This document shows positions 33,001 through 39,000 of a DNA stretch of 64,000 nucleotides, in pieces; position 1 is the first letter of the stretch; each line of letters opens with the position of its first letter. Made by a program: the position numbers. This DNA is from an uncultured Candidatus Binatia bacterium (GTDB lineage: Bacteria; Desulfobacterota; Binatia; UBA9968; CAXXLF01): contig OZ244621.1 in the NCBI GenBank assembly GCA_965218425.1, forward strand, positions 2,624,001 through 2,688,000, read 5' to 3'.

Positions 33001-36000
33001 GCGGATTGGTACCGTTTCGGGGCGGAAACGGTCTTTGGGCCCATGATGCCGCCGGGACGTCCCGATTGATACCCTTCAGCTCTCAATAGCTGTTGGGCTT
33101 TGCGAACCTGTTGCCGACTTGGGGTAAATTCATTTTCCTTGGAGAAGATACCTTTCACCTTGGAGGCGGCAATTTTGGCGTCCTCTTTCAGACCACGAAA
33201 GGTGGAGCATCCTCCCAAGGCAAATACGAAAACAACCACGAAAAGAGCAACGAACCTGTTCATTTTGTGCCTCCCCGATATCGATCCGGCCTTTGATCGG
33301 TTTTAGTTGCCAAAGTGGGGGCCGCCCCTTTACTGATGCCGTGGTTTTAACATTGGCGGACCTGCTTAGGATTCGAGGCAAGAAAAGTGCCTTTAAAATA
33401 GCGTGAACCTATAAGCAAAAAATAGTCGCTGTTGTACCACCTTTGTCAGAACCCGCCCGGGCTCGGGTCACTCAAGATTGCGGGATTGTCTATCTCTGCC
33501 TTCGGATGATTCCCAAGCGTGCAGAATGGTTCACGAATGATACTCGCGGCTCAAATGTTAAGCTGTTGCGGTGAGTTGGGTTTGCGGTTCGTTCTGACGA
33601 GAAGAGTTTGATTTAAAAGCGGTTTTAATCTAGGGCCTGGCTCAGATTCTTTCCCTTGAAGTGTTCAGCAAAACAGCTTCACTCAGTTTATCGCGCCAAG
33701 TCATTGACGTCGCAAAGAAAAATATTTTTATGCTCTCCGAACTTGGCATGCTTTGCGGTTCGACCGATTCGACAGGCTCACGGCCCTGAGGCTCTCGAAG
33801 GACGCGAGTCATTTTTTCCCGGAATGCGCTATCCAAGATTCTGCTGAAAATTTCAAATACGTCGGGTTAGCTTTTGGACAGCTCGAGGAGAAGTCTCCTC
33901 CAGGATTCAGACTCGCCCTTGGGATCCACCAGGGGGGATAGACGGGTGCAGTGGTCTTTCAGTTGGCGGTAAAAGTATGGTTCATTTTCAGCTTTTTGCA
34001 GGAGGCGGGTCAGGGCACGAGTATCGCCAACCGGGAAGTATCCTGGGTAGTTCTCGCCAAGTGTCCCCATTAGGCCGGTAATTTTTGAAGCCAACACCGG
34101 TATCGATGAAGCAAGGGCCTCGGACAGGACATTGGAACTTCCTTCAATCTTGGAACTGAGTGACATCAGGTGACTGTGGGCCAATACTTGGCGTGTCTTC
34201 CAATGGGGCAGCTCTCCTACCCAGTGATAGCGAGGGTTGCGCTCAACTTCCTTCCGCGCCCGCTCTCCCATCTCATTGCTCAGTGCGCGTCCTACATGGG
34301 TGATCCGTACACGAGACGATACAGGAAGCTGGCGGGCGGCCATGGCCGTGCGAAAGGGGTCCTTCTCGGGGCGCAGGTGTCCAACCACACAGACTTTGAA
34401 GACCTTACTTGCATTGGAGGCCTTCCCATTGACTTTAGGGGCTGACTGATAAATCGCCCGGGTCTTGCTGTGAAGGCGCCGTGGGAGTTCCTCCATGGCC
34501 TTCCTTTGCAGAACGATGAGATGCGTGGCAAGTTCGAGGGATTCCTGGGCACGGGAGTCCTTGCGGATATCCCGGTAAAGATCGGTGCCCGTGAGTACTA
34601 CAATGAGTGGAAGATTGGGAAACTTTTCGCGATAATGGCAGATGGACTCATAACTGCGCAGGGCGTGCAGGGCAATTAGCAGGTCGCATGATCGGCCGTT
34701 ATAGTTTCGTTCGACACTAACACGGTGACCCAGCCGCTTTAAGATCCCTGCCCATCGAAGGGCTGTAATCTGGTTGCCGTTTCGGGCATGGGGTGGCGCC
34801 GGCGTAATGAGCTTGATTCTCACACTGGACCTCTGCTCTATGCAATTACGCGATCAGGCGCTCGGTTGGGGCTGGATACGGTCAATTGGTAAAACTCAAT
34901 GTTGCCCATCTGGCTCTTCCCGAAGGTTCAATTTTTGCGAATGTACGACACTTGCCCTCAAGTATCAAGTTCAAGATTGATTTTCATCATCTCCAACCAT
35001 GGGTGAAATTCTTCAAACCAAGGTTCCCGTTGATTTTCCAAGAGAAATCGATAGGCCCCTCCAAGGTCGGCTCGTTTTTTTTGCGTAAGGGCCAGGGGTT
35101 TTTCCTTGTCCTTTGAACCGTTGACCTGCTCACAAAATCTGCGAATAACCCGCCAGTGAGGTAATGCCGTTGAACCGAGTCGCTCCGTAACCGCAACTTC
35201 CCAACTCGATTCGGGATCATATCGGACCGGGTTGGAGGCATAGTCGAAACAGGTGGCAAGGGGAATGAAGCTAAGATTTTCCTGCAATAAAGGGTTATTC
35301 AGATAACCATATACCAGTTCCGGCAACCGGGGGTCTCGGCTTTTTAGGGGACCCAAATGCATTTCCATGCTCATGGTGAGGTCGTTCACGGGATAGTTGT
35401 CCCAAAGAATGAGGCGGCGGTGGAGGGCTTTCTTTACTTTTCTCGCATGGGCCAAGGTGATGGACTTTGAGACCACCGCCGGGCCAGTCCAGAAGCAGCA
35501 TACCGATTCGGGCAGATGCTCATCCAGGGTCTCAAGGAATGAGGGCTCAAAGGCCCCAAAGGTTCGAGCAAGAAAGGGATCTTCCGTGTAGTAGGAAGGG
35601 CAGATCCACCATTCCACTTCGTTCCAGAACTTCGATTGTCGGTTCAATATTGTTTTTAGCCACAGACCTTCGGCCTTTGCCAAGCTCCCGTCGAATAGTT
35701 TTTTGTCTTGGGGAAATTCCAACTGGGAGGGGATATCATCGAACAGGACAGCGAAGGTCCGTACACCGGCCTCGTACAGGCCCTTGGCTTTGGCAAGCAG
35801 CCAGTCCACGGGTTCGGCTGCGCCAAAGTGGAGTCCCTTTCCTGGATGAAACCCGTAGACGAAATCCACATCATGCTTGGTGGCTTCACCAATGAGTTGT
35901 AACAAATCCTGCCATTGCTGCTCTGGGTAGGGTTTTTCCCAGTGTTCCCTGTGATAGGGGTCATCTTTTGGGGCGTACAGGTAGGTATTCATTCTCCTTC

Positions 36001-39000
36001 TCTGTCCGAACTCGAAAATCGCGGCCCGATGGGACATACTCCAGGGGGGACCGAAAAATCCCTCAACAATGCCACGACGCTGAAAAGTCTGATCCGCAGG
36101 CATAGGATGAGTCAAAAGATATTTTGATTGTTTGTCAAGCATGGGGCCCCGTTGACCCATGGTCAAATTTGGGGTTTGGTTAGTTCGGGTCGTTTTTTCT
36201 GACGGTGAAAATATTGTTTTTGCATGGGAGCGCTGCGAAATATATGGATACGCCTAAAGCAATCTTTAAAAGCCCAAAATTCCTCCAGGCCATTGCTGTT
36301 ATATTCGTAAGCTATGCCGTGGTCTATGCTCAAGGGCCTAGCACGGCCATGATCACCATTCCCGCGGGGCCGTTTATAATGGGAAGCGATAGAGGTCCTG
36401 AGGACGAAAGGCCCGCGCACGCTGTAGAGCTCCCGAGTTTTGCCATTGACCGCACTCCGGTGACCAACGCTCGGTTTGCCGTGTTTTTGGACGTGGCGGG
36501 TCCGGAGAGTCCCGAGGGAAGACGCTTCTATGATGTTGACGATAATGACGCGCGCATCCACCGGATGGATGGAAGGTGGCAAGCCGATGATGGTTTTGCA
36601 GATCATCCGGTGATGGAAGTTTCCTGGTTCGGTGCAACAAGCTACTGCGGTTGGGCAGGTAAGCGCCTGCCCACGGAAGCGGAATGGGAGAAGGCAGCCA
36701 GGGGAACCGATGGTCGCAGGTTCCCTTGGGGAAACATCCCTCCAGATTCCAGCAGGGCTCAGTTCGATGCGGGATGGAATGAATCCGCTCCTGTGGATGG
36801 TTTTCCAGCTGGGGCGAGTCCCTACGGAGTTTTGGATCTTTCAGGGAATGCCTGGGAGTGGGTTAGCAGCGCCTATCTTCCCTATCCTTATAACCCGTCA
36901 GATGGCCGCGAAGATTTACGGGCGGGTCCAGTTCGTGGCACACGAGGGGGAGGCCACGATTCGCCGGCTGAGGAGTTGACCACAACCCATCGGGGTGAGA
37001 ACCTTTCGCGTAACTATCGAGGGGGACACCATAACATTGGGTTTCGTTGTGCAAGGTAGTTTCCCCCTTCCTGCAGGTTTGTATGGTGCATTCGTGAAGG
37101 TGGACGAAACCCACGGCGAGCTATGATAAAATTTTCAATGGTGCGCATAATACTACCAATGATTGAGCATCGAAGCATAACCCGGGTGCTAAATTACCAG
37201 TGGACCGTGGGCCTATTTTGCTTGCCGCTGGTCATTCTCTCAGCGATTCGCATACCAGCACAGCCATTTCCAACTCCCGTGGAGGTTGCCCCTGTGGTGA
37301 CCCAAACGGTGGAGGAAGAGGTCTCCTTCATCGCAACCCTCGAGCCCAATATTACCACCACGGCGGGTGCTGTGGTTTCAGGACGAGTTATCAGAGCTGA
37401 GGTGCGGGAGGGGGATCGAGTGGAGAGGGGAAAAACCCTCCTCATGCAAATCGACCGTACCTCCAGAGAGATCGCGCTCAGGGAAGCGGAGGCGTCAGTG
37501 ACCAAGAATCGTGAAAAATGGCAGCGCTTGCGACGTGGCTATCGCCTGGAAGAAGTGGCACAGCGACGGGCCGAATCGGAGGAGCAAAAAGCCATCCTTT
37601 CTCGCACGGAGCAGGACTTCAAAAGGGGGGAGCGCCTTTACCGCGACGAGCTTGTTAGCCTCGCTGAACTTGAGCGTCTTCAAAGCGAGTACCTTGCAGC
37701 CAAGGAGAAGCATGGACGAACCCTGGCGGCCCTTCGGATGGCTGAAGCCGGCCCGAGGCGTGAAGAGATCGCGGAAGCAGAGGCCGAACTCAGGGAGGCT
37801 CAAGCCAGATACGACCTGATCGCCTATGAGCTCGACCGTACGACTCTACGTGCCCCACTCACAGGTTTTCTGGTTAGAAAATATGTAGAGGTGGGCACCT
37901 GGGTAAGCACGGGTGATCCCATTGCCGACCTGGTGGACTTGAATCCCGTTTATGCCAGCGGGCCGGTGGGAGAGCGCAAGATTAGCCTTCTCCAAAAGGG
38001 CCTTACTGCAACAGTGGCGGTGGATGCCCTTGCGGGACAGAGCTTTGAAGGAATGGTGACCCAGATCGTTCCCCGTGCGGATCCACGAAGCCGAACCTTT
38101 CCTGTGAAGGTCCGCATTTCCAATGAGAATGGACGGTTGAAGAGCGGCATGCTGGCACGAGTTACGGTGAAAGTGGGCAATGGACGTTCCGGCCTGCTGG
38201 TACCAAAAGATGCCCTAGTTCGTAGAGGGGTGGATGAAGTTGTATTTGTGGTGGAAGACGGGGTGGCGAGACAGGTAAAAGTGAAAACGGGGCGCGCCGT
38301 TCAACAATTGATGGAGATACACGACAGCGATCTTAAACCCGACCAGGAAGTGGTGGTCATCGGCAATGAATCACTTACCGGCGGGGCTAAGATTCGAAAG
38401 ATAGACCGAAAAGAACCAGGTCGAGCACCAAGGACTCAATGAAGCTCATCGATTTCTGCATTCGCTACCCCGTGACGGTGATGGTTGGGGTCTTGCTGTG
38501 TCTCCTTTTCGGAGTCATAGGGCTATCACGCCTGCCTGTTCAGCTAATTCCTGCGGTGGATCGTCCTGAGATCACAGTTGAGACAGAGTATCGCGGGGCC
38601 GCACCCCTGGAGGTGGAACGAGAGATCACCGATCGCATGGAGGAGAAGCTCAACGCCGTTGAGGGTCTCAAGGAGATGTCCTCCGTTTCCATCGAGGGCA
38701 AGTCCACTGTGATCCTGAAATTTGATTGGGGGACCAACAAGGACATTGCCCGGCTGGGGGTCTCCGAAAAACTTGACCTGGTTACAGAATTGCCTCCAGA
38801 TGCAGAGGAATCGCAGGTCCGCGCGGTCAACACCGATGAAGAAAGTCCCATCGCCTGGATTATTGTCGAAACCACTCGTGACCTCAACGAGGTGTGGGAG
38901 GAAGTGAAAGACATTATCGTCCCACGGATTGAGCGGGTCAGCGGTGTGGGTGCGGTTTGGCGATTTGGAGGGCAGGATCGCGAGGTCCATGTGACCCTGG

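What a model noticed while it worked through the whole genome (the two positions that open the first line are those of the whole stretch)
33867..37059. A GH84 (O-GlcNAcase-type) glycosidase is a conserved fourth gene of the selenoneine (sen) cluster
A single-domain GH84 hydrolase (g02626) is co-oriented directly upstream of senB, and its orthologs sit beside senA and/or senB across the order in three different arrangements. It is proposed to cleave the Se-GlcNAc bond, freeing selenoneine from the reduced dead-end product hercynyl-SeGlcNAc or recycling the selenosugar.
Evidence so far: senB and senA (C1:4060211-4061545) pass NCBIfam equivalog cut-offs; catalytic FDD motif intact. Orthologs in 23 of 25 order genomes; senA or senB within 1.5 kb in 16 of 19 relative loci read: GH84-senB in f1, GH84-senA-senB in f3, GH84-senA in f2. 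The 11 distant GH84s (31-36% identity) of other Binatia orders show no sen gene nearby. The reduced selenoether is a documented SenA by-product.
(Added by a program. Inside this text positions count along the whole contig: contig position 2,624,001 is position 1 of the stretch shown here. "Call 12" and the like, gene names such as g00115 and contig names such as C1 are that model's own, and its searches are not shown. The text may have been shortened before it was handed on; [...] marks where a part breaks off. The agent that wrote the report below was given it as the finding of a first reader that could run no searches.)

Follow-up and report, generated by a model that had tools for sequence, protein, structure and literature searches.

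The report
GlcNAc hydrolase inside selenoneine operon
In one order of uncultured bacteria a sugar-cutting enzyme is kept inside the gene cluster for the selenium antioxidant selenoneine, which points to an undescribed step that removes or recycles the sugar carrying the selenium, not yet tested at the bench.

Summary
The window has a cytoplasmic single-domain GH84 (catalytic residues intact) 134 bp upstream of a true senB. In 79 of 89 order genomes with this GH84, senA or senB lies within 6 kb, always downstream on the same strand; the other 10 are split across contigs or lack sen hits. egtD is often upstream; selD was in 0 of 40 regions. Other neighbours change between families. One metagenome contig has a nested GH84 copy beside a divergent senB. 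A functional tie to the selenosugar pathway is likely (about 0.78); the substrate is open. Best guess: it cleaves GlcNAc from hercynyl-Se-GlcNAc (0.35). Against: the paper ascribes that selenoether to DTT in vitro; most sen clusters have no GH84; sister GH84 clades are unlinked (0 of 80 loci; 0 of 11 regions); the link may be largely one evolutionary event; this genome has AmpG and AnmK but no NagZ, so a wall-recycling role remains possible. The divergent FGE-domain gene inside the finding's coordinates is not senA. No paper found; this scan noted the same link on seven other genomes.

The parts
33867..34823 (-). senB, selenosugar synthase (GT-B)
   Evidence: TIGR04348 403 bits over cut-off 300; aligns to V. 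paradoxus SenB structures, E 2e-61; N20, T23, H58, R61, T83, T85, Q131, R155, K158, E231, E239 equivalents present
34824..34957 (.). 134-bp spacer between GH84 and senB; no terminator-like site on the minus strand; one 9/12 promoter-like match at 34968-34940, at chance level
   Evidence: 4 promoter-like sites found, 2.8 expected
34958..36103 (-). single-domain GH84 beta-N-acetylglucosaminidase, 381 aa from ATG 36103 (longest ORF starts at TTG 36166, 402 aa); no signal peptide
   Evidence: PF07555 276 bits; best solved relative T. terrenum OGA 5DIY (TM 0.83); model pLDDT 93; catalytic and sugar-pocket residues conserved; N-terminal hydropathy -0.16
36247..37059 (+). divergent stand-alone FGE-sulfatase-domain protein with a hydrophobic N-terminal stretch (longest ORF from GTG 36205); not SenA; role unknown
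   Evidence: PF03781 183 bits; SenA model 107 of 420 bits; hydropathy 2.7; beside GH84 in 19 of 40 relative regions, 0 of 9 in family f3

Best explanation
An accessory glycosidase of the selenoneine pathway. Shown by sequence: the genome encodes SelD (one in-frame TGA, beside selA/selB-like genes), EgtD, SenB and a hercynine-type SenA, and a cytoplasmic GH84 with intact catalytic machinery is kept in the sen operon across the order. Known from papers: SenB makes beta-SeGlcNAc; SenA joins it to hercynine as a selenoxide that eliminates to selenoneine or is reduced to the selenoether; GH84s hydrolyse beta-GlcNAc by substrate-assisted catalysis. Inferred, not shown: cell thiols reduce part of the selenoxide as DTT does in vitro, and this GH84 cleaves the GlcNAc-Se bond of the hercynyl adduct (selenoether, possibly the selenoxide), releasing selenoneine and GlcNAc. 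The imidazolyl-selenolate should be a good leaving group, like the thioglycosides that O-GlcNAcase is reported to cleave without acid catalysis. Odds: any tie to the pathway about 0.78; this substrate 0.35.
For: 79 of 89 GH84 genomes have senA or senB within 6 kb, all downstream and co-oriented. In 40 relative regions from three families senB is present in 39, while other neighbours are family-limited: FGE 19, AmpG-like 22 (f2 only), cinA 6, acrB 6, amidohydrolase 9 (f3 only). egtD lies upstream on the same strand within 10 kb in 30 of 84 genomes; G047 reads egtD-GH84-senA-senB and G064 egtD-GH84-senB with gaps of 129-330 bp. G007 (95% complete) keeps senA, selD, egtD and anmK but has neither GH84 nor senB. 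L218 has a GH84 nested in the order clade (69% to f2 members, support 0.99) 2.3 kb from a SenB outside the order's SenB clade (at most 51% identical; TIGR04348 373 bits) amid genes without close homologues in G000. In the SAR324 phylum all 10 genomes with the sister-clade GH84 have senB, against 6 of the other 78. SenA keeps the His triad, N63, E68, R120, Y363 and the Y/N/F hercynine motif in 36 of 36 (motifs). [quoted passage not shown]
Against: No assay and no expression data. The preprint suspects the selenoether is a DTT product and says that elimination makes a cleavage enzyme unnecessary. Of 9 class genomes outside the order with senB, 6 have no GH84 and 3 have a distant GH84 on another contig. 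GH84 is not among gene families listed beside NHISS genes in PMC13674229 Table 1. The 350-aa sister clade has no sen gene in 80 of 80 loci and senB in 1 of 10 genomes tested; the SAR324 sister GH84s have no sen gene in 11 of 11 regions and are probably close kin. The Tyr-to-Phe change beside the general acid (152 of 154 clade sequences against 4 of 254 others) also occurs in 37 of 80 unlinked sister loci, so it is no sen signature. Alkyl S-GlcNAc resists human OGA. L218 has no senA within 15 kb. G096 may be a true break of linkage. The order-wide link may be one ancestral event.
Confidence: 0.35

Rival explanations
1. Sugar-waste salvage: the GH84 hydrates 2-acetamidoglucal, released at each selenoxide elimination, to GlcNAc through the oxazoline intermediate, returning the sugar to the UDP-GlcNAc pool.
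For: 2-acetamidoglucal was observed in the full OvsA reaction, described as analogous to SenA (PMC11030361); it is stoichiometric, not a side product. Same linkage data as the best explanation. G000 has an AmgK-like kinase gene (98 bits, below cut-off 550). Hydration of this glycal by beta-hexosaminidases is recalled (Lai and Withers 1994), from no call.
Against: The precedent was not found in the library and is recalled for GH20, not GH84. No nagA over cut-off in G000. L218 has no senA nearby.
Confidence: 0.18
2. Selenosugar turnover: the partner is SenB; the GH84 hydrolyses surplus SeGlcNAc, its diselenide or a methylated form, releasing selenide for SelD and GlcNAc.
For: Where senA is elsewhere, GH84 stays with senB: G000, G001, G004, G064 and L218. 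G007 lacks both GH84 and senB but keeps senA. An ovsA mutant accumulates SeGlcNAc.
Against: Loss of the middle gene from GH84-senA-senB leaves GH84-senB adjacent passively, so the f1 and G064 cases say little. A free anomeric selenolate is a poor leaving group (inference); alkyl S-GlcNAc resists OGA.
Confidence: 0.18
3. Passenger: a general cytoplasmic beta-GlcNAcase, for example a NagZ stand-in for cell-wall recycling, that lay beside the sen genes in the order's ancestor and stayed there.
For: G000 has a true AmpG (504 bits, cut-off 350), AnmK over cut-off and amgK/murU-like genes, but no GH3 and no GH20 match. An AmpG-like transporter gene (242 bits, below cut-off 350) converges on senB in 22 of 29 f2 regions. 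Sister clades are unlinked to sen genes; one sister locus (L183) follows an ampG-like gene.
Against: AnmK is found in 4 of 101 order genomes, all f1; f3 has no AnmK (0/28) and no GH3 (0/28) yet GH84 in 27/28; f2 has a GH3 of NagZ size in 57/68 and GH84 in 59/68; G007 has AnmK without GH84 or GH3. Other neighbours are not kept across families. A second, NagZ-like job in f1 is compatible with the best explanation.
Confidence: 0.2
4. Sulfur route: SenB/SenA also run on thio-GlcNAc, and the GH84 frees ergothioneine from the stable thio adduct, replacing EgtB/C/E.
For: With thioglucose SenA gives a stable sulfoxide and no ergothioneine, so a cleavage enzyme would be needed. G000 has egtD but no egtB or egtC over cut-off (only a 230-aa DinB-like fragment). 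selD is outside the cluster in 40 of 40 regions.
Against: selD is present in 94 of 101 genomes; SenC made no product with sulfide; SenA and SenB keep canonical residues; no thiophosphate source identified; the sulfoxide would first need reduction.
Confidence: 0.07

Closest known systems
sen cluster senA-senB-senC of Variovorax paradoxus (bioRxiv 10.1101/2022.04.13.486033)
   Same: SenA and SenB pass their NCBIfam cut-offs and keep the published substrate and catalytic residues; egtD sometimes co-located, as the preprint notes for a subset.
   Different: selD outside the cluster; a GH84 in front of senA-senB; in this genome senA, selD and egtD are all scattered; SenB reads EGS.NV in 38 of 38 order sequences where the published motif is EGGAHV; no egtB/egtC over cut-off in this genome.
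GH84 O-GlcNAcases: Thermobaculum terrenum OGA (PDB 5DIY), C. perfringens NagJ, B. thetaiotaomicron BtGH84, human OGA
   Same: TIM-barrel fold (TM 0.83 to 5DIY); DD pair, Lys, Trp, Asn, Asp pocket residues.
   Different: About 33% identity; shorter helical C-terminus; 12-residue insertion at 196-207; Phe for the Tyr that bonds the general acid (BtGH84 Y137); clade residues H107, S191, L263, L293; next 50%-cluster representatives drop to 41% or less.
ovs (ovoselenol) cluster, OvsA/OvsM (PMC11030361)
   Same: Same SeGlcNAc donor; the genome's SenA scores best against the OvsA-YNF variant 8UX5 (337 bits).
   Different: The genome's enzyme carries Y/N/F, the hercynine-accepting SenA motif, not M/Q/A; egtD is present; no hydrolase mentioned in that paper's main text.
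NagZ (GH3) of AmpG-NagZ-AnmK-AmgK-MurU peptidoglycan recycling
   Same: Cytoplasmic exo-beta-N-acetylglucosaminidase role is missing in G000 while AmpG and AnmK are present.
   Different: Different family and mechanism; presence of this GH84 does not follow AnmK or absence of GH3 across the order.

Membership tests
GH84 beta-N-acetylglucosaminidase | PF07555 catalytic domain over gathering score | tested here: met
   276 bits, cut-off 25
GH84 beta-N-acetylglucosaminidase | Adjacent catalytic Asp-Asp and sugar-pocket residues (human G67, K98, D174, D175, N280, D285, N313) | tested here: met
   G36, K67, D143, D144, N257, D262, N291 present, 99-100% in the clade (human residues)
GH84 beta-N-acetylglucosaminidase | Tyr that hydrogen-bonds the general acid (BtGH84 Y137, human Y69) | tested here: not met
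   Phe in 152 of 154 clade sequences; Tyr in 250 of 254 others; Phe also in 37 of 80 sister loci. Modulating, not essential, by my reading
GH84 beta-N-acetylglucosaminidase | TIM-barrel fold like solved GH84s | tested here: met
   pLDDT 93.4; Foldseek 5DIY E 2e-34, TM 0.83
GH84 beta-N-acetylglucosaminidase | Measured beta-GlcNAcase activity | not testable with these tools
   needs an assay
SenB selenosugar synthase | TIGR04348 over cut-off; N20/T23/E231, K158 and SeP-pocket residues | tested here: met
   403 of 300 bits; residues present (list)
SenA selenoneine synthase (C1:4060211-4061545) | NF041186 over cut-off; His triad; catalytic Tyr; His and Phe/Tyr for EgtB Arg87/Asp416; Y/N/F hercynine motif | tested here: met
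   483 of 420 bits; residues in G000 and 36 of 36 order sequences
SenA (window ORF 36205-37059) | NF041186 over cut-off and N-terminal DinB domain | tested here: not met
   107 of 420 bits; FGE domain only
Canonical senABC cluster | senA, senB and senC (selD) co-located | tested here: not met
   senA 1.4 Mb and selD 1.35 Mb from senB in G000; selD in 0 of 40 relative regions
Canonical senABC cluster | Selenoneine production | not testable with these tools
   needs metabolite analysis or reconstitution
NagZ-type recycling enzyme | GH3 family membership | tested here: not met
   PF07555, no PF00933
NagZ-type recycling enzyme | Co-occurrence with AnmK and absence where a GH3 NagZ exists | tested here: not met
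   AnmK 4/101, GH3 57/101, GH84 89/101

The most novel reading that the evidence does not exclude
The GH84 is a natural chalcogeno-glycosidase that makes sugar removal enzymatic, so that the EgtD-SenB-SenA-GH84 set could yield ergothioneine from a thio-GlcNAc donor as well as selenoneine, in bacteria without EgtB/EgtC: a new ergothioneine route. (The milder reading, a first natural seleno-glycosidase acting on a Se-GlcNAc metabolite, has probability about 0.5 and interest about 0.7.)
Probability: 0.07. Interest if true: 0.85.

Novelty: new variant of a known kind. Interest (0 to 1): 0.55.

Why it matters
The selenoneine pathway is described as three enzymes with a spontaneous last step, and what happens to the sugar, or to adduct reduced by cell thiols, is not addressed in the texts I read. 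A beta-GlcNAcase held in the operon across a bacterial order names a concrete enzyme for that gap. If it cleaves a Se-glycoside it would be, as far as my searches reach, the first natural selenoglycosidase, would show that the spontaneous step leaks in vivo, and could raise yields in selenoneine production. It would also give a small-molecule role to a bacterial member of the O-GlcNAcase family. All substrates and partner enzymes are available from published work, so the test is a short experiment.

Tried and rejected
Fusion search (705-2010 aa): none of the best 120 of 270 hits carries a SenA, SenB or EgtD domain or exceeds 40% identity (weak evidence). The Tyr-to-Phe change as a sen-specific adaptation: rejected, it occurs in 37 of 80 unlinked sister loci; a first regex count was replaced by the alignment count. 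The 350-aa sister clade as a wider sen-linked family: rejected (0 of 80 loci; senB in 1 of 10 genomes, where one search had no positive control ringing). Missing selD as a sign of a sulfur pathway: rejected, selD in 94 of 101. The genome's SenA as OvsA: rejected by motif. The FGE ORF as senA: rejected. 20 distant GH84 regions from other families of the class or phylum, plus G410: no sen gene. Phylum sample of 301: 4 PF07555 matches. Promoter and terminator scan: chance level. Plasmid collection: no match at 60% or more; host lineage of L218 not resolved. The metagenome scan aimed at the SAR324 clade returned one short contig of it. The cluster-member look-up could not be made, so names for P0275 and P0347 themselves are lacking. 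No complex was predicted, as binding is not claimed. Literature searches and a supplement search found no paper joining a GH84 or glucosaminidase to sen genes; most subscription papers and bioRxiv supplements were not searchable, and the supplementary cluster figures of the two Kayrouz preprints could show such a gene.
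Full report
What is in the window. On the minus strand a GH84 ORF (34958-36166; PF07555 276 bits) lies 134 bp upstream of senB (33867-34823; TIGR04348 403 bits, cut-off 300). The likely GH84 start is ATG 36103, giving 381 aa: 86 of 120 orthologs begin 10 residues before GIVEG, and the N-terminus has no hydrophobic stretch. The divergent ORF 36205-37059 is a stand-alone FGE-sulfatase-domain protein with a hydrophobic N-terminus, 107 bits against the SenA cut-off of 420; it is not senA. The spacer shows nothing above chance for promoters or terminators.

The rest of the pathway in this genome. senA is at C1:4060247-4061539 (483 bits), selD at C1:1307623-1308549 with one in-frame TGA, selA at C1:1300977, egtD at C1:2962609 (287 bits, just under the cut-off of 291). 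SenA scores best against the OvsA-YNF structure 8UX5, but Y/N/F is the hercynine-accepting SenA motif (PMC11030361), and the His triad, N63, E68, R120, Y363, N395, F396, F/Y397 and R401 equivalents are kept in G000 and 36 of 36 order sequences; SenB keeps N20, H58, T83, T85, R155, K158, E231, E239 in 38 of 38 (residues from PMC11237966, and PMC10891094). No egtB or egtC passes its cut-off.

Conservation in the order. In 101 genomes (G000 included) GH84 matched in 89, senB in 94, senA in 96, egtD in 89, selD over cut-off in 94. From those coordinates, 79 of the 89 have senA or senB within 6 kb (75 senB, 75 senA), all downstream and on the same strand. For senA I used matches near or over the cut-off and partial matches at contig ends, and dropped about 22 full-length weaker matches (220-257 bits) as EgtB-like paralogues. 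Of the other 10, one (G093) has no sen hit and nine have them on other contigs, mostly with a gene at a contig end; G096 may be a real break, though its GH84 still has egtD upstream. Three of the genomes counted (G069, G074, G092) are marked unpublished; all three are among the 79, and the conclusion does not rest on them. I read 40 regions of up to 20 kb (2 f1, 29 f2, 9 f3): senB in 39, senA in 36, egtD in 21, selD in 0, while other neighbours are family-limited (FGE 19, AmpG-like 22, alpha/beta-hydrolase 21, LysE 20, desaturase 18, OpuA-like ABC genes 16-17, glyoxalase 10, amidohydrolase 9, cinA 6, acrB 6, labels). egtD is upstream and co-oriented within 10 kb in 30 of 84 genomes; G047 reads egtD-GH84-senA-senB. 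The arrangements are thus GH84-senA-senB (f3, many f2), the same with 1-3 inserted genes (f2) and GH84-senB (f1, G064). These genomes are kin; the counts are not independent events.

The enzyme. The model (pLDDT 93.4) matches T. terrenum OGA 5DIY best (TM 0.83). Catalytic D143/D144 and K67, W255, N257, D262, N291 are invariant or nearly so (human equivalents in PMC10636738). The orthologs form a tight clade: beyond it, full-length 50%-cluster representatives are 41% identical or less. A tree of 129 catalytic domains groups the clade with a SAR324-type clade (0.83) and a 350-aa mostly proteobacterial clade (0.91), all sharing a DPxL..FG insertion. The Tyr that bonds the general acid in BtGH84 (PMC4501319) is Phe in 152 of 154 clade sequences and Tyr in 250 of 254 others, which looked like an adaptation to a leaving group that needs no acid; but 37 of 80 unlinked 350-aa loci have Phe too, so I give it little weight.

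Outside the order. In 331 class genomes, 9 outside the order have senB: 6 have no GH84, 3 a distant one on another contig; 21 distant GH84 regions show no sen gene and 9 senB regions no GH84. The 350-aa clade has no sen gene in 80 of 80 loci and senB in 1 of 10 genomes tested. In 88 SAR324-phylum genomes, 10 have the sister GH84 and all 10 have senB, against 6 of the other 78, but no sen gene lies in the 11 regions read and these genomes are probably close kin. One metagenome locus, L218, has a GH84 nested in the order clade (69% to f2 members, support 0.99) 2.3 kb from a true SenB (373 bits) that falls outside the order's SenB clade on a long branch (51% at best), with ArsR-rhodanese, desaturase, rhodanese and SemiSWEET genes between them and no senA in 15 kb. 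This fits a transferred GH84 that is again beside senB, but it is one locus, its host is unresolved, and joint transfer with faster SenB change is not excluded.

The wall-recycling rival. G000 has AmpG (504 bits, cut-off 350), AnmK over cut-off and amgK/murU-like genes below cut-off, with no GH3 or GH20 match: a NagZ-shaped hole that this GH84 could fill. Across the order the pattern does not hold: AnmK in 4 of 101, all f1; GH3 in 57 of 68 f2, 0 of 28 f3, 0 of 4 f1; GH84 in 59 of 68 f2 and 27 of 28 f3; G007 has AnmK but no GH84, GH3 or senB. Presence follows senB better than recycling genes. A second job in f1 is possible.

Mechanism. The genome's only detected beta-GlcNAcase sits in the operon for a beta-GlcNAc selenide, inside egtD...senA-senB in several relatives, while other neighbours turn over: I put a functional tie at about 0.78. 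Substrate candidates: (1) hercynyl-SeGlcNAc, an imidazolyl selenoglycoside with a good leaving group; the preprint detected it but suspects excess DTT, and cell thiols may do the same (inference); O-GlcNAcase cleavage of thioglycosides without acid catalysis is known to me from a title in reference lists and recall, while Cys-S-GlcNAc resists it: 0.35. (2) 2-acetamidoglucal, seen in the OvsA reaction; glycal hydration by hexosaminidases is recalled only: 0.18. (3) free SeGlcNAc or its diselenide: 0.18. (4) a thio route to ergothioneine: 0.07. Passenger or recycling enzyme: 0.2. Steps shown here: gene identities, residues, linkage, distribution. Steps inferred: co-transcription, every substrate.

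Literature seen. 10.1101/2022.04.13.486033: parts 1-2 of 4. PMC11030361: parts 1-2 of 7 and passages. PMC11237966: parts 2-3 of 5. PMC13674229: part 1 of 5 and a term search of its one supplement, no hit. Passages only: PMC10891094, PMC10636738, PMC4501319, PMC2973230, PMC8451060, PMC10687168, PMC6259741, PMC9615045, PMC12073459. Searches gave no paper linking a GH84 to sen genes; supplements of the two preprints were not seen and may bear on this. The scan's own notes report the same link on seven other genomes; they are unchecked AI notes and not counted as support.

Verdict. Real, conserved, chemically apt and apparently unpublished; an accessory variant of a known pathway with an untested enzyme. 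Interest 0.55.

Noticed in passing
L314:6177-7076, L315:7097-7924, L316:1710-2609 (SAR324-phylum genomes G673, G665, G666): Three senB genes share an in-frame TGA at the same position (query residue 171), where 8 of the 11 other SAR324-phylum sequences covering it have Arg; possible selenocysteine, readthrough or an inherited nonsense change.
   Followed up: partly
L218:3687-8131: senB, ArsR-rhodanese, desaturase, rhodanese, SemiSWEET and a clade GH84 in a background of CusA-like efflux and CobW-like GTPase genes; no senA within 15 kb.
   Followed up: partly
G000 C1:1408559-1411641 and C1:3207035-3208333: amgK-like, murU-like, anmK and ampG genes with no GH3 NagZ or GH20 found in a 97% complete genome: a hole in peptidoglycan recycling, also seen in G007.
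   Followed up: partly
L123-L202: A widespread 350-aa single-domain GH84 clade (Halieaceae, Cellvibrio, Aeromonas, Bdellovibrionales and others) of unknown role, often after holB-pilZ or beside pgi-edd-zwf (labels by eye); sister to the sen-linked clade.
   Followed up: partly
family f2 regions, e.g. L057, L073, L078: OpuA-like betaine-type ABC transporter directly upstream of egtD (candidate hercynine or selenoneine transporter), with divergent desaturase, LysE and FGE-domain genes and a convergent AmpG-like MFS gene.
   Followed up: no
order SenB sequences, window 33867-34823: EGS.NV in 38 of 38 order SenBs where 9 of 9 other class SenBs have Gly at the G233 position of the sugar-binding motif; may alter donor preference.
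   Followed up: no
G000 C1:1801049-1801741 (L331): 230-aa ORF matching only the N-terminal DinB part of EgtB (148 bits), between a UbiD-like gene and a NikR-like regulator (neighbours by eye).
   Followed up: no
window 43337-44376 and G000 C1:4059097-4060170: A two-ORF IS630-like transposase (label by eye) in the window, and a near-identical copy directly upstream of senA, which may relate to senA's separation from senB.
   Followed up: no
G064 (C10, C56), G090 (C437), L315: Genomes with two senA-scoring genes; in L315 two lie in tandem before senB.
   Followed up: no
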